From positions 45,632,001-45,696,000 of the forward strand of contig OX597826.1 of NCBI GenBank assembly GCA_951406725.2: DNA of 64,000 nt. The letters run 5' to 3'. The first letter of the stretch is position 1. Each line of letters starts with the position of its first letter. The notes below the pieces were generated by a model, which searched no databases, was not told where the DNA came from, and was given only the letters and a program-made list of their open reading frames with translations. This DNA is from Octopus vulgaris. Taxonomy: Eukaryota. Positions 33-34,500 of this stretch are shown in pieces. The translations under genes and the position numbers were made by a program.

Positions 33-619
33 AATATTCCTTTATACTCTAGGCACAAGGCCCGAAATTTTGGGAGAATGGGGCCAATCGATTAGATCGA
101 CCCCAGTTCGCAAATGGTACTTAATTTGTCGACTCCGGAAGGATGAAAGGCAAAGTCGAACTCAGCAGAATATGAACTCGACAGACGAAATACCTATTTC
201 TTTACAATACCTATTGTTTTACAAGGGGCTAAACACAGGGAGGACAAACAAGGACAGACAAACGGATTAAGTCGATTGCATCGAACCCAGCGCGTAACTG
301 GTACTTATTTAATCGACCCCGAAAGGATGAAAGGCAAAGTCGACCTCGGCGGAATTTGAACTCAGAACGTAGCGGCAGACGAAATACCTATTTCTTTGCT
401 ACCCACAAGGGGCTAAACACAGAGAGGACAAACAAGGACATACAAACGGATTAAGTCGATTATATCGACTCCAGTGCACAACTGGTAATTAATTTATCGA
501 CCCCGAAAGGATGAAAGGCAAAGTCGACCACGGCGGAATTTGAACTCAGAACGTAACGACAGACGAAGTACGGCTAAGCATTTCGCCCGGCAGGCTAACG
601 TTTCTGCCAGCTCGCCGCC
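33..619 (-). mobile_element. SINE family A (tRNA-derived, Meta/MESC-type central domain, OR1-like): 3-unit array
   Basis: The minus-strand head GGCGAGCTGGCAGAAACGTTAGC (A box) is followed by the B box GAGTTCAAATTCC and the core GACTTTGCCTTTCATCCTTTCGGGGTCGATAAATTAAGTACCAGT. Unit junctions (plus-strand gaaatacctatttc) lie at ~187 and ~381. The family name is from memory. Confidence 0.85.
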
Positions 620-635
620 ATTAAAAAAGGATTGA

Positions 636-1035
636 ATGTTCTTTTCTACACTAGGCACAAGGCCCGAAATTTTGGGGGAGGGGGCCAGTCGATTAGATCA
701 ACCCCGGTATGCAACTGGTACTTAATTTATTGACTCCGAAAGGATGAAAGGCAAAGTGGACCTCGACTGAATATGAACTCAGAACATAAAGACAGACGAA
801 ATACCTATTTCTTTACTACCCTCAAGCGGCTAAACACAAAGAGGACAAACAAGGACAGACAAACGGATTGAGTCGATTATATCGATCCCAGTTCGTAACT
901 GGTACTTATTTAATCGACCTCGAAAGGATGAAAGGCAAAGTCGACCACGGTGGAATTTGAACTCAGAACGTAACGGCAGACGAAATACCGCTAAGCATTT
1001 CGCCTAGCGTGATAACGTTTCTACCATCCTCGTCG
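636..1035 (-). mobile_element. SINE family A: 2-unit array
   Basis: Same core sequence. Junction gaaatacctatttc at ~798. The 3'-most unit has the alternative (alpha) tail CCCCCAAAATTTCGGGCCTTGTGCCTAG. Confidence 0.85.
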
Positions 1036-9697: not shown

Positions 9698-11175
9698 CTC
9701 ATTTTGGCAAAAGGCCAGCAATTTTGAGGAGAAGAAGCATATCGATTAAAAGACCCGAAATTTGAGGGGATGGGGTCAGTCGATTACATCGACTCCAGTG
9801 CTCAACTGGTACTTAATTTATAGACCCCGAAAAGATGAAAGGCAAAGTCGACCTCGGCGGAATTTGAACTCAGAACGTAACGGTAGACAAAATACTGCTA
9901 AGCATTTCGCCCGGCGTGCTAACGATTCTGCCAGATTGCTACCTTAACAAGTCGATTACCTCTTTTATTTTATTTTCTGCTCTAGGCGCAATGCCTAAAA
10001 TTTGGGGGTGGGGTGCCAGGCGATTAGATTGATCTTAGTACGCAACTGGTACTTAATTTATCGACCACGAAAAAGATGAAAGGCAAAGTCGACCTCGGCG
10101 GAATTTGAACTCATAACCGTAAAAACAGGAAATGCTGGTAAGCATTTTGCACGGGGTGCTGACGATTCTGCCAGCTTGCTGTCTTTAACAAGTCGATAAT
10201 ATCAACGCCAGTACAGGTGTGGTACTCATTTTATCGACCACGAAATGATGATAAACAAAGTCGACCGCAGTGTTTTTTTAAATTTTTAATTCAGAACGAA
10301 AAGAGCCGGAAGAAATGTCGCTAAGCAATTTATTAAACCTGCTAATGATACTGCCGCCTCGCCGCTTTAGGTCACAATAATCCATTCTACAGTAGATACA
10401 AGATCAGAATTCTTTTGTGGGATTGAGGCGTAGGTATATCGATTACATCGACGCCAGTGCGAAACTGATTCTTATTCCATCGACTCCGAAAGGATGAAAA
10501 GCAAAGTCGACCACGGCGGGATTTGAACTCAGAACGTAAAGACAAACGAAATACCAATTTCTTTACTAGCCACAAGGGGCAAAACCAAGAGAGGACAAAC
10601 AAGGACAGACAAACGGATTAAGTCGATTATATCGACCCCAGTGCGTAACTGGTACTTATTTAATCAACCCTGAAAGGATGAAAGGCCAAGTCGACCACGG
10701 CGGGATTTGAACTCAGAACGTTAAGACAAACGAAATACCTATTTCTTTACTAGCCACAAGGAGCTAAACCCAGAGAGGACAAACAAGGACAGACAAACGG
10801 ATTAAGTCGATTATGTCGACTCCAGTGCGTAACTGGTACTTAATTTATCGACCCCGAAAGGATGAAAGGCAAAGTCGACCTCGGCGGAATTTGAACTTAG
10901 AACGTAGCGGCAGACGAAATACCGCAGAGCATTTCGCCCGGCGTGCTAACGTTCCTGCCAGCTCGCCACTTTTAGTTTCAGTTTCGGCACAAGGCCAGCA
11001 TTTTTGAGGACAGGGTGGGTAAGTCGATTATATTAACCCCGGTACCTGAGTGGTACTTATTTCATCGAGCCCGAAAAGATAAAGGGCAAAGTCGATGTCG
11101 TTGGAATTCGAGAGCTGGAAGAAACGCCGCTAAGCAATTTATTTAGCACGCTAATGGTTCTATCATTTCACCGCT
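9698..11175 (-). mobile_element. Cluster of ~7 SINE family A copies, including a 3-unit array at 10430-10968
   Basis: Repeated core gaaaggatgaaaggcaaagtcgacctcggcggaatttgaactc. Array junctions at ~10548 and ~10732. Confidence 0.85.
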
Positions 11176-13177: not shown

Positions 13178-13621
13178 TAGACATGAATAATAAACCTAGA
13201 CATTCCGCGAAACTAGCCGTGGTCACAGTAAAAATTTTCTTCAGCTCACTCACATACACTGCCGTCTTTAAAACAATCAATGATAAATTTGATAACGTAT
13301 TCCTAGACACACTGTTCTTCTATCATTATCTTCTTTTGAGCAGGCAGAATGGTTAGCAAGACGGGCAGCATTTCGTCCGTCTTTACGTTCTGAGTTCAAA
13401 TTAGACATGAATAATAAACCTAGACATTCCGCGAAACTAGCCGTGGTCACAGTAAAAATTTTCTTCAGCTCACATACACTGCCGTCTTTAAAACAATCAA
13501 TGATAAATTTGATAACGTATTCCTAGACACACTGTTCTTCTATCATTATCTTCTTTTGAGCAGGCAGAATAGTTAGTAAGCCGGGCAGCATTTCGTCCGT
13601 CTTTACGTTCTGAGTTCAAAT
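13178..13621 (+). repeat. Tandem duplication of ~222 bp (13178-13401 and 13402-13621)
   Basis: Near-identical copies starting tagacatgaataataaacc, differing by one 4-bp indel and 3 substitutions. Each ends in a SINE A head. Confidence 0.9.
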
Positions 13622-14271
13622 TTCGATGAAGTCTACTTTGCACTTCATGCTTTCGGGGTCAGTAAAATAAGTACCAGTTGAACACTGGGATTGATGTAAT
13701 CGACTAACTCACTTCCAAAGAAAGTCTAGTGGCGTTGTGCCAAAATTTGAAGCAATTATTATATTCTTTAGAATGGCAGAATGGTTAGCACGCCGAATAA
13801 AATGTGCAGCGGTATTTCGTCCGCCATTACGTTCTGAGTTCAAATCCCGCCGAGATCTAGTTTGCCTTTCAAACTTTCAGGATCGATAAAATACGTACCA
13901 GTTGAACACTGGGGTCGATGTAATCTACTTAGCCCCCTCCCCCAAAATTGAAGGCTTTGTGCCGAAATCCGAAACCATAATTATACTTTTTTATGACTTT
14001 CTATCATGGACTGCGACCATGATGGGTCTTCAAGGGTCTAGCAGCTCAAATCTACCCCAGTTCATAAAGCTTGGTGCTTATTCTGTCGGATCTCTTTCGT
14101 AGAACCGCTAGGTTACGAGGACGTAAGTAAACCAATACCATATGTCAAACGGCATGGGTACAAATAAAAGCTGGCAAACACATGCATATATACAAACGTG
14201 TGTGTGTGTATGTGTGTGTACATGCACGTATGTAAGTATTTATTTGTGAACGCATGTACGTGTGATTTGAT

Positions 14272-14675
14272 TTCAAATTTTGGCGCAAGACCTACAATTT
14301 CGAGGGAGAGGATAAGTCAATCAAATTGACCCATGTGTTCGTCTATTACCTCGAAAAAATGAAAGGTAAAGTCGGCCTCGGCAGAACTTGAACTCAAAAT
14401 GTGAAGGTAGAAGAAATACATTTTTTTGTCCGGCGTACTAACCATTCTTATTTCTTTATTGCCCAGAAGGAACTAAACATAGAGGGGACAAACAAATACA
14501 GACAAAGGAATTAAGTCGATTAGATCGACCCCAATGCGTAACTGGTACTTAATTTATCGACCCCGAAAGAATGAAAGGCAAAGTCGACCTTGGCGGAATT
14601 TGAACTCAGAATGTAACAGCAGACGAAATACCGCTATTTCGCCCGGCGTACTAACCATTCTGCCAGCTTGCCGTC
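14272..14675 (-). mobile_element. SINE A copy inserted into the head of an older SINE A, with a 19-bp TSD
   Basis: ccggcgtactaaccattct is duplicated at 14430-14448 and 14643-14661. Confidence 0.85.
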
Positions 14676-14747
14676 TTGTATTTATGTACGTTTGTTTTTA
14701 TATTCAGTTATAATAAAAGCCATTCTCGTTATTCTTTTAAAAGAATA

Positions 14748-17560: not shown

Positions 17561-17620
17561 AGCAGGTGCGGCTGTAGGTGCAGCTGCAGCTGTAGGTGCT
17601 GATGTGGCGGTATGTACAGA

Positions 17621-17797
17621 AGGTGGCGAGCTGGCAGAAACGTTAGCACACTGGGCGAAATGCGTAGCCGTATTTCGTCTGCCGCTACGTTCTGAGTTCA
17701 AATTCCGCCAAGGTCGACTTTGTCTTTCATCCTTTCGGGGTCGATAAATTAAGTACCAGTTACGCACTGGGGTCGATGTAATCGACTTAATCCGTTT
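17621..17797 (+). mobile_element. SINE family A copy
   Basis: Complete head and core, 3'-truncated. Confidence 0.85.
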
Positions 17798-17964
17798 GTA
17801 AAGATATAGGTATGTACAGATGTAACCCTGTGAATGAAAAATTTGTTTCCTAACCGCATGGTCTTGGCTCACTGCTACCAGGGGCAAGTGCTTTTCACGG
17901 TAACGCGAGGCTGTCAAAAGCCTTGTACTAGGTTTGATCAATACGTATCTGGGCTGGTGTTATA

Positions 17965-18995
17965 AAAATTCGAACTGAGAACATAAAGACAGACAAAATA
18001 CCGCAAATATCGGCGTGCTAACGTTTCTTATTTCTTTTATTGCCCACAGGGGGCTGAACATAGACGGAACAAACAAGGACAGACAAACGGATTAAGACGA
18101 TTACATCGACTCCAGTGCGTAACTGGTACTTAATTTATCGACTCCGAAAGGATGAAAGGAAAAGTTGACCCCGGCGGAATTTGAACTCAGAACGTAACGG
18201 CAGACGAAATACCTATTTCTTTAATACCCACAAGGGGCTAAACATAGATGGGACAAACAAGAACAGGCAAAGGGATTAAGTCACTTACACTGATCCCAGT
18301 GCGTAACTGATACTTAATTTATCGACCCCGAAAGGATGAAAGGCAAAGTCGACCTCGGCGGAATTTGAACTCAGAACGTAAAGACAGACGAAATACCTAT
18401 TTCTTTACTACCCACAAGGGGCTAAACATAGACAGGACAAACAAGGACAGACAAACGGATTAAGACGATTACATCGATACCAGTGCGTAACTGATACTTA
18501 ATTTATCGACCCCGAAAGGATGAAAGGCAAAGTTGACCTCAGCGGAATTTGCACTCAGAACGTAACGGCAGACGAAATACCTATTTCTTTATTACCCACA
18601 AGGGGCTAAATACAGAAAGGACAAATAAGGACAGACAAACGGATTAAGTCGATTAGATCGACCCAGTGCGTAACTGGTACTTAATTCATCGACTCCGAAA
18701 GGATGAAAGGCAAAGTCGACCTCGGCGGAATTTGAACTCAGAACGTAAAGACAGACGAAATACCTATTTCTTTACTACCCACAAGGGGCTAAACATAGAT
18801 GGGACAAACAAGAACAGGCAAAAGGATTAAGTCAATTACATTGATCCCAGTGCGTAACTGATGCTTAATTTATCGACCCCGAAAGGATGAAAGGCATAGT
18901 CGACCTCGGCGGAATTTGAACTCAGAACGTAACGGTAGAGGAAATACCGCTAAGCATTTCGCCCGGCGTGCTTACATTTCTGCCAGCTCGCCGTC
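17965..18995 (-). mobile_element. SINE family A: 5-unit array (183-184 bp period) plus a remnant of the host copy
   Basis: gaaatacctatttc junctions at 18206, 18390, 18574 and 18757. Single head at ~18950-18995. Confidence 0.9.
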
Positions 18996-19377
18996 TTCGT
19001 TGCACACTGTATTCTCAAGAATTACGTTTATATTTCATTGCAGCTTAGTTGTAAAGGAACTTGGATTTGAACTGTAAATATATTTCTTGGCACTTAATTT
19101 TTCACTATATTTCAGATGTTTTTGTTGTTCTCTTTTTTTATGCAAATATACAACGCCAAGGTAAGAGACAATAAAATGCGTAAGCGTAATAAAATAAAAC
19201 TCAAACCCACACCTCGGTGTAATTAGGTATAACACCATTTAACTGATAAACATTGCTAGTCGGGGTAACACTTCTGTAGTATTTAATAGATTCGAAATAA
19301 AATTGGACGTCAACAATGAAGGTGTCAAAAGTTGAACTACACACAAACACACGAGCGCAAACATGTCTTACTTATAA

Positions 19378-33590: not shown

Positions 33591-34500
33591 ACCATTGGGA
33601 GTCACTGGTGATTCTCCTGGTATATAAAGTATATAGCGTGGAGTGTTACCGGTGACTGTCATGGTATATTAAGAATATACGGTGAGCTGGCAGAAACGTT
33701 AACACGCCGGGCGAAATGCTCAGCGGTATTTCGTCTGCCGCTACGTTCTGAGTTCAAATTCCGCCGAGGTCGACTTTGCCTTTCATCCTTTCGGGGTCGA
33801 TAAATCAAGTACCAGTTACGCACTGGAGTCGATATAATCGACTTAATACCTATGTCTGTCCTTGTTTGTCCCCTCTGTGTTTAGCCCCTTGTAGATAGTA
33901 AAGAAATATGTATTTCGTCTGAGCTTAAATTCCGCCGAGGTTGACTTTGCCTTTCATCCTTTCGGGGTCGATAAATTAAGTACCAGTTACGCACTGGAGT
34001 CGATATAATCGACTTAATCCGTTTGTCTGTACTTGTTTGTCTCCTCTCTGTTTAGCCCCTTGTGGGTAGTAAAGAAATAGGTATTTCGTCTACCGTTACG
34101 TTTTGAGTTCAAATTCCGCCGAGGTCGACTTTGTCTTTCATCCTTTCGGGGTCGATAAATTAAGTACCAGTTACGCACTGGGGTCGATATAATCGACTTA
34201 ATCCGTCTGTCTGCCCTTGTTTGTCTCCTCTGTGTTTAGCCCCTTGTGGGTAGTAAAGAAATAGGTATTTCGTCTACCGTTACGTTTTGAGTTCAAGTTC
34301 CGCCGAGGTCGACTTTGCCTTTCATCCTTTCGGGGTCAATTAACTAAGTACCAGTTACACACTGAGGTCGATGTAATCGACTTAATCCCTTTGTCTGTCC
34401 TTGCTTGTCCCCTCTATGTTTAGCTTATTGTGGGCAATAAAGAAATAAGAATATACGGTGAGGAGTCACCACCAGTGACTCGCATGGTAAGCGAAATGTT
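33591..34500. mobile_element. Small MITE-like element interrupted by the SINE A array
   Basis: Inverted ends accattgggagtcactggtg (33591-33610) and caccagtgactcgcatggt (34470-34488). Confidence 0.55.
33681..34449 (+). mobile_element. SINE family A: 4-unit array flanked by a 17-bp TSD
   Basis: taagaatatacggtgag occurs at 33670-33686 and 34446-34462. Junctions at ~33909, 34080 and 34264. Confidence 0.9.

What the first reader, a model, noticed from the sequence alone, without database searches (positions are those of the whole stretch)
17965..18995. Self-targeting SINE: one-head, many-body arrays joined at one fixed nucleotide
Seen: five arrays (33-619, 636-1035, 10430-10968, 18029-18995, 33681-34449) each have a single complete tRNA head followed by ~184-bp headless units. 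All 12 internal junctions fall at the same site, tail..AAAGAAATA|GGTATTTCGT, in the loop of the head hairpin GGGCGAAATGC-ttagcg-GTATTTCGTC. In every array the 3'-most unit has a different tail from the internal units. Inference: new copies insert site-specifically into the head of a resident copy and resolve their 5' end by homology, so the head is not duplicated. The SINE would thus use itself as a safe-harbour target while keeping one intact Pol III promoter.
Basis: partly seen in the sequence, partly recalled or inferred. Interest (0 to 1): 0.78.

Follow-up and report, generated by a model that had tools for sequence, protein, structure and literature searches.

The report
SINE that homes into its relatives
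A very common short jumping element in this animal genome lands again and again at one exact base inside the front end of older copies of its own kind, likely because its RNA carries a copy of that landing site, which leaves chains with one head and several bodies.

Summary
The arrays are real: one Pol III-type head, 184-bp units, one junction (J1) with 23,064 exact copies genome-wide. J1 is a true insertion site: 127 places show the junction sequence duplicated in front of a second full head, against 5 at a control site. In 1.97 Mb sampled, the 3' unit is usually an older SINE family, its flanking duplication is old, only the first ~14 head bases are old, and no shared master multimer was found. 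The tail resembles the 3' end of an abundant L1-group LINE. Targets follow the tail: T1 tails land before GGTAT, T2 tails before AGA/AATA and at a second head site, which points to pairing by read-through RNA. Corrections: many copies sit in non-SINE DNA, 28 of 149 arrays end in the internal tail, and local duplication adds units, including in the focal array. Safe harbour is unsupported. The anatomy is known from a clam, and the steps from R2 and Alu; the self-carried guide to one base appears new.

The parts
18949..18997 (-). Single SINE head (positions -49..-1), A-box-like TGGCAGAA at about 18978-18985
18765..18948 (-). Unit 1 (184 bp): junction motif, B box at about 18912-18921, central body, LINE-like tail T1; shares 7 private changes with unit 4
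18582..18764 (-). Unit 2 (183 bp), headless, joined at J1
18398..18581 (-). Unit 3, headless, joined at J1; shares 3 changes with unit 5 that no other of 518 units combines
18214..18397 (-). Unit 4, headless, joined at J1
18029..18213 (-). Unit 5, headless, variant tail T2
17967..18028 (-). Remnant of an older resident SINE from head position -33 to +35, joined to the T2 tail at the second junction J2
33..620 (-). Array: head, two family-A units, older family-B unit
636..1030 (-). Array: head, one A unit, family-B unit
10400..10970 (-). Array: head, two A units, old resident; unit 2 is a mosaic (5' like the resident, tail like unit 1), so one insertion plus one local duplication
   Evidence: resident end and flank covered in two other organisms
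33671..34462 (+). Array: head, three T1 units, T2 unit, enclosed by a 16-bp target duplication at 33671-33686 and 34447-34462
14348..14677 (-). T2 monomer inserted at J2 of an old resident; both head copies share private changes (target-duplication type)
17605..17820 (+). Family-A monomer with most of its tail missing, in non-SINE DNA, 12-bp duplication starting GGTAT

Best explanation
This is a short non-coding retroelement (SINE) whose copies insert at one fixed base in the head of resident SINEs, likely because its RNA reads on past the tail into the junction sequence and pairs with that same sequence in the target, and whose head is likely merged with the resident head by homology so that only one remains. 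Steps. (1) Shown: head with A/B-box motifs, no run of four T in the monomer; inferred: Pol III reads through the tail into whatever follows. (2) Shown: the tail resembles the 3' end of an abundant LINE with endonuclease, reverse transcriptase and zinc finger, closest to L1 ORF2p, and target duplications have a median of 15-17 bp; inferred: such a LINE protein does target-primed reverse transcription from the tail. (3) Shown: targets follow the tail type and J1 is a hot spot; inferred: the bases after the tail pair with the nicked primer, so a copy that once landed at J1 hands GGTATTTCG.. on as a guide, a positive feedback. (4) Shown: after insertion the first ~14 head bases are resident-aged and the rest young, with no internal duplication in about 97% of cases; inferred: the cDNA end anneals to the resident head, as proposed for R2. 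(5) Shown: local duplication or conversion then adds and mixes units in many longer arrays, including the focal one.
For: Insertions caught unresolved: junction sequence + 0-10 bases + new full head at 127 places genome-wide against 5 for a control 11-mer from the body (some of the 127 are local repeats of one event); 5 of 167 sampled arrays show resident head or tail, an 11-19-bp duplication and a second head (one more). Last unit older than first: family B 39 against 15 (n=64, p=3e-5), older C/x 15 against 2 (n=17, p=9e-4). Duplication around A-B arrays is old: perfect in 3 of 19, solo B 2 of 18, young T1 23 of 43 (p=0.006). Head -40..-31 divergence 39/587 in A-B arrays, 26/1022 in solo A (p=1e-4), 50/666 in solo B (p=0.58); body of the first unit young (136/4423 against 237/7541). 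B-type T at +15: first unit 6/60, last unit 38/60, solo B 40/65, solo A 5/103. Adjacent A units share no rare change in 62 of 100 first pairs. Tail decides target: T1 to J1 120, J2 0; T2 to J1 1, J2 6 (before T2-targeted searches); in non-SINE DNA T1 is followed by G in 35 of 54 (GGTAT or more in 15 of 54, background 0.0007) and T2 by A in 35 of 44. In 4 of 43 T1 insertions G, GG or GT follow the tail but are absent from the upstream duplication copy. Precedent: read-through pairing (PMC6795142, passages) and upstream heteroduplex with a ~5% duplicated minority (PMC3774820, passages).
Against: No RNA was seen; read-through and pairing are inferred. No empty-site allele was obtained. Mismatch rate of duplications around A-B arrays (22/237) lies between young (29/517) and solo B (24/218) and differs from neither by that measure (p=0.08, 0.64), so some A-B arrays may be single multimer copies. 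B units at J1 are less diverged than solo B (0.058 against 0.073). Arrays of young units show no age gradient. Over -30..-1 A-B heads differ from neither solo A nor solo B (p=0.65, 0.31); only the C class separates (p=4e-4). Both tail types share W-A-T at target positions 3-5 and the related LINE always sits before CATAT in (TATC)n (10 of 10 3'-end loci), so the endonuclease probably contributes. The unresolved form at J2 (7) is not above the control. The exact partner LINE was not identified. Most of the sample was picked by motif searches on one chromosome end.
Confidence: 0.68

Rival explanations
1. Insertion at J1 is real but set by the sequence preference of a Tx1-like LINE endonuclease, not by the RNA.
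For: The related LINE family is tightly tied to (TATC)n; Tx1-mobilised SINEU-3 goes to fixed sites in another transposon (PMC4494074, passages); W-A-T is shared by T1 and T2 targets.
Against: T1 and T2 tails differ by two bases yet go to different head sites and different first target bases; bases matching the junction appear after the tail without a counterpart in the upstream duplication copy. T2 is somewhat older, so two LINE subfamilies cannot be excluded.
Confidence: 0.14
2. Arrays are copied whole from read-through multimer RNAs, or built in one event by the reverse transcriptase jumping between RNAs at the shared GGTATTT.
For: No terminator in the unit; one duplication encloses whole arrays (9 of 20 T1-ended, 9 of 14 T2-ended); first and last units equally young in T1-ended arrays.
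Against: Of 14,706 array pairs only 3 match in both units, all segmental duplicates with identical flanks (this excludes few masters, not thousands of weak sources). Old duplications and old head 5' ends in A-B arrays. Of 23 arrays without a full head only 1 had an enclosing duplication.
Confidence: 0.1
3. One or a few ancestral dimers, expanded and shuffled purely by DNA-level unequal exchange (a SINE-derived satellite).
For: Adjacent units are closer than random (0.071 against 0.103), nearest neighbour in the same array for 66 of 249 units; 18 of 32 longer arrays hold a pure sub-clade; an 11-unit near-uniform array; private haplotypes in the focal array.
Against: Only 4 of 32 arrays monophyletic; 97 of 297 junctions join different families with the switch before +13; duplicated-head insertions at J1. 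It is a contributor, not the origin.
Confidence: 0.04
4. Insertion at J1 always duplicates the head first; the two 65-bp head repeats collapse later by recombination (differs from the best reading only in step 4).
For: Duplicated heads exist; a later crossover would also leave an old 5' part and a young 3' part.
Against: It needs about 97% collapse in elements only ~3% diverged, and resident-type bases should persist further into the head than seen at -12, +2, +13, +15.
Confidence: 0.15

Closest known systems
TSD-(SINE)n-TSD arrays of the blood clam Scapharca broughtonii (PMC11481361, passages)
   Same: First SINE with full head, repeated head-truncated units, last unit with a different 3' end, one enclosing duplication.
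   Different: There 3% of copies, and unequal recombination is suggested; here internal units keep the full tail, junctions number tens of thousands and there is direct evidence of insertion at the junction.
Squamate SINE-derived satellites, sSat1-3 (PMC10702118, main text parts 1-4 of 5)
   Same: Tandem units from part of a SINE with a longer terminal unit; alternating sub-variants.
   Different: sSats are long, homogeneous, subtelomeric; these are mostly 2-5 unlike units, interspersed, ending in older families.
R2 in 28S rDNA (PMC6795142 and PMC3774820, passages)
   Same: Works like it: downstream target sequence in the RNA aids priming; upstream homology gives seamless 5' joins with a small duplicated minority.
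   Different: R2 is autonomous with a site-specific nuclease and a host gene target; here a non-coding passenger of an L1-group LINE targets a repeat family, and many insertions go elsewhere.
SINEU-3 / Tx1-Mar of crocodilians (PMC4494074, passages)
   Same: SINE moved by a Tx1-type LINE into fixed sites of a repeat, sequential tandem insertions, 16-bp duplication.
   Different: Target is an unrelated DNA transposon, copies stay separated by the duplication, specificity is ascribed to the endonuclease.
Alu self-insertion hot spots (bioRxiv 10.1101/2025.02.26.640385, passages)
   Same: RNA 3' end pairs with sites in resident copies, sense orientation, feed-forward.
   Different: Generic poly(A) pairing, about 11-14% of insertions, up to 10-fold enrichment, heads kept; here one complex-sequence base and head merging.
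Octopus tRNA SINEs OR1/OR2/OK and Nin-DC/Deu central domains (reference listing, passages; otherwise recalled)
   Same: Recalled resemblance of head and central body; the host looks like an octopus (my inference from genome size and repeats).

Membership tests
SINE | Short, non-coding, interspersed, high copy number | tested here: met
   233-bp monomer; 171 units in 464 kb; 51,481 exact T1 tails
SINE | Internal Pol III A and B boxes in the head | tested here: met
   A-box-like at -37, B box at +27
SINE | 3' end shared with a LINE | tested here: met
   last ~45 bases align to 3' ends of an endonuclease-RT LINE
SINE | Target-site duplications | tested here: met
   found in 102 of 195 scorable loci, control 2 of 400, median 15-17 bp
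tRNA-derived SINE | Head traceable to a tRNA | tested here: inconclusive
   boxes present; ARAGORN 0, Rfam 0
SINE | Transcribed by Pol III | not testable with these tools
   no raw RNA reads available
Nin-DC / Deu superfamily | Central conserved domain | tested here: inconclusive
   recalled likeness; three motifs not found in 4 supplement files of PMC4758252, file 1 not searchable
Octopus OR1/OR2/OK | Match to published consensus | not testable with these tools
   original paper seen only as a reference
Target-specific retroelement (over 20% in one target, criterion of PMC4494074) | Share of copies flanked by one target | tested here: met
   37 of 61 T1-like tails at J1; 22 of 61 if only older-family and unrelated junctions count
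Dimeric SINE with master copy (Alu type) | Multimers share linked changes across loci | tested here: not met
   3 of 14,706 pairs, all segmental duplicates
SINE-derived satellite (sSat) | Long homogeneous arrays | tested here: not met
   228 of 239 arrays have 2-4 parsed pieces; 4 of 32 monophyletic
TRIM / Cassandra tandem arrays | 4-5-bp duplications, terminal repeats | tested here: not met
   duplications 10-26 bp, LINE-like tail; PBS/PPT not searched; PMC10886601 abstract
Retrozyme | Self-cleaving ribozyme in each unit | tested here: not met
   no Rfam match at gathering or E<=1; an undescribed ribozyme is not excluded
Partner LINE as Tx1 clade | Placement in an RT tree | not tested
   L1 group by best solved-structure hits; Tx1 label rests on recalled features (ORF1 zinc knuckle, microsatellite target)

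The most novel reading that the evidence does not exclude
A SINE family carries its own heritable targeting guide: the bases read through behind its tail direct up to about half of its insertions to one nucleotide in the heads of its own and older SINE families, each hit renews the guide and overwrites the resident's promoter, and a second tail variant with another extension homes to a second nucleotide.
Probability: 0.55. Interest if true: 0.76.

Novelty: new variant of a known kind. Interest (0 to 1): 0.63.

Why it matters
If true, a non-coding passenger can retarget an L1-group enzyme by RNA-DNA pairing alone and join seamlessly at the 5' end, a natural case of RNA-programmed insertion at genome scale. 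It offers a testable origin for one-head SINE arrays now ascribed to recombination (clam, squamates), shows how old SINEs get young promoters and new tails (module exchange), and warns that repeat ages and copy counts in such genomes are distorted by chimeric copies.

Tried and rejected
Empty-site test with other samples: contigs of 4+4 runs broke inside the SINEs, no verdict; only the old resident end and flank at 10310-10498 were seen in organisms D and E. No RNA holder listed. Fixed-window duplication dating lacked power and was replaced. A new promoter formed by the T1 tail (A-box-like TAGTAAAG at +171): 0 of 239 arrays start there, rejected. Simple duplication model (resident bases 0..+16 copied into unit 1): rejected for most J1 events, seen in a few J2 events (shared changes 8 of 60 over -33..-10, control 2.6). 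RNA fold of two units not better than shuffles. Over-specific duplicated-head pattern gave 1 hit. Closer LINE-like tail found at only 3 places, not characterised. Atlas search gave only generic LINE clusters. Earlier findings of this scan: nothing. Paper searches listed no description of this junction or mechanism in a cephalopod SINE; subscription papers, Repbase and Dfam were not searchable, and unseen supplements (PMC11481361, PMC4758252 file 1, the bioRxiv preprint) may bear on family naming.

Full report
Observation. The window lies in a 2.8-Gb genome of 227 contigs; that the host is an octopus is my inference from size and repeat content, not a tool result. On the minus strand, 17967-18997 holds a 49-base head, five units of 183-185 bp and a 62-bp remnant of an older SINE. 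The other four arrays are as described. All 12 internal junctions are in register (J1: tail AAAGAAATA, then GGTATTTCG, head position 0); 10 of 12 are exact. The 27-base junction occurs 23,064 times genome-wide, the reversed control never. No tRNA or Rfam family is found; A- and B-box motifs are.

Sample. I parsed 1.97 Mb (window, 200 kb around it, 200 kb contiguous on C1, the rest chosen by motif hits on C1) into 1,123 SINE pieces at 748 loci. Young family A has two main tails, T1 and T2, differing at two bases. Older families B and C share head and body to +118 and have other tails; mean private divergence of solo copies is T1 0.032, T2 0.048, B 0.073, C 0.117. The 464 kb called unbiased below includes the window itself.

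The internal tail is not confined to junctions: it ends 28 of 149 head-bearing arrays, and 21 of 61 T1-like tails in the 464 kb are followed by non-SINE DNA, 37 by J1. A second junction exists, T2 joined to head position -33 (J2; 1,308 exact copies); it closes the focal array. Of 297 J1 junctions, 97 join A to an older family, 80 join unrelated A units, 29 share one rare change, 59 involve a unit related to an array mate, 32 lead to partial units.

It is a LINE-driven SINE. Duplications were found at 102 of 195 scorable loci (control 2 of 400), median 15-17 bp, starting at the tail end. The last ~45 bases resemble the 3' end of a LINE with a 1,149-residue endonuclease-RT-zinc-finger frame, closest to L1 ORF2p, 26,617 first-look candidates in the genome. 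That LINE family sits before CATAT in (TATC)n in 10 of 10 fetched 3'-end loci; it is a relative, not proven to be the partner. The monomer has no run of four T, so Pol III would be expected to read through (established knowledge).

J1 is an insertion site. Five of 167 head-bearing arrays have, upstream of their head, a resident head or tail ending in an 11-19-bp copy of the junction sequence (6 flagged, 1 was an ordinary flank; a stricter scan gave 4 of 299 with one new case). Genome-wide this form occurs 127 times against 5 at a control site; among the 100 listed, 8 form one local run and a few are pairs. The same form at J2 occurs 7 times, not above control. The last unit is older than the first when it is family B (39 against 15 of 64) or C/x (15 against 2 of 17), weakly for T2 (12 against 6 of 23, p=0.06), not for T1 (12 against 10 of 28). 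Duplications around A-B arrays look old (perfect 3 of 19; solo B 2 of 18; T1 23 of 43), though by mismatch rate the difference from T1 is only p=0.08. No master multimer: 3 of 14,706 pairs match in both units, all with identical flanks. At 10310-10498 the old resident's end and flank are present in organisms D and E, E differing by 11-13% in flanking DNA, while the A units are 4-8% from consensus; whether those organisms carry the A units could not be read.

The single head. In A-B arrays the first unit is A-type at +13, +15, +93, +96, +109 while the last unit is B-type from +13 on and A-like at 0..+11. Head positions -40..-31 are as diverged as in solo B and more than in solo A; -30..-1 cannot be told apart for B but is young for C residents. 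So the resident keeps its flanks and first bases and the newcomer supplies the rest. R2 elements with upstream target sequence in their RNA are described as joining the same way, with about 5% duplicated junctions in one species (PMC3774820, passages). Later collapse of two heads is the alternative.

What picks the site. T1 goes to J1 and T2 mostly to J2 (one search includes loci picked for J2 and for T2 followed by GG). In non-SINE DNA, after removing loci picked on that base and those scoring as SINE, T1 is followed by G in 35 of 54 and by at least GGTAT in 15 of 54 (background 0.0007), or by TATAT-like sequence; T2 by A in 35 of 44 (a few long matches may be unparsed SINE starts). In 4 of 43 T1 insertions G, GG or GT after the tail have no counterpart in the upstream duplication copy. 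The simplest reading is that bases read through behind the tail pair with the nicked target, as reported for R2Ol (PMC6795142, passages). A copy at J1 passes on a perfect match to every SINE head, hence feedback. A weak endonuclease preference (W-A-T) probably adds.

Local exchange. Adjacent units are closer than random, 21 of 100 first pairs share two or more rare changes, 18 of 32 longer arrays hold a pure sub-clade and 4 are monophyletic. In the focal array units 1 and 4 share seven changes and units 3 and 5 three, combinations found in no other of 518 units. Its likely history: a T2 copy entered J2 of an old SINE, one or more T1 copies entered J1, and local duplication or conversion made the rest.

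Comparison. The anatomy is described in the blood clam (PMC11481361, passages) and resembles squamate sSats (PMC10702118, parts 1-4 of 5). SINE targeting of a repeat is known for SINEU-3 (PMC4494074, passages) and self-insertion for Alu (bioRxiv 2025.02.26.640385, passages). Zepp and HeT-A arrays are recalled only. Ten paper searches listed no account of a SINE homing to one head base by its own read-through sequence; older subscription papers on octopus SINEs and repeat databases could not be read.

Verdict. Real; insertion at J1 is well supported, RNA guidance and co-insertional head merging are inferred (0.68); safe harbour is unsupported. New variant of a known kind, interest 0.63.

Noticed in passing
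window 17967-18028 and 14348-14448; 1,308 exact copies genome-wide: Second fixed junction J2: T2 tail joined to head position -33, inside the A-box region.
   Followed up: yes
G000:C10:17996023-17996500: Eight head-only repeats with a 64-65-bp period (head plus J1 duplication), a tandem array of promoters.
   Followed up: no
L319-L329; G000:C1:60418992-60441087, 71616089-71630281, 84374167-84393686: Abundant young L1-group LINE with many intact ~1,140-residue frames, inserted in (TATC)n and clustered in runs of same-strand copies.
   Followed up: partly
L316-L318: Rare element (3 copies) whose 3' end matches tail T2 more closely; candidate relative of the true partner LINE.
   Followed up: partly
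solo T1 copies in L006-L035: Head variant GCGTAGCC tends to go with TATAT targets and GCTTAGCG with GGTAT targets, perhaps two source lineages with different read-through; partly a sampling effect, not tested.
   Followed up: no
window 600-660, 9758-10363, 10968-11111, 13338-13931: Old SINEs often lie head to tail a few bases apart, suggesting insertion at or near older tails as well.
   Followed up: no
L119 (G000:C1:4676060-4678100): Eleven-unit array of near-identical units ending in family B, the satellite-like extreme.
   Followed up: partly
L128, L145 and L120: Inverted SINE pairs joined back to back with a duplicated ~5-kb or ~3-kb segment (L145, L120) and a 2-kb tandem LINE-end duplication (L128).
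   Followed up: no
window 13178-13622: 220-bp two-copy duplication (96% alike) that includes a SINE head fragment.
   Followed up: no
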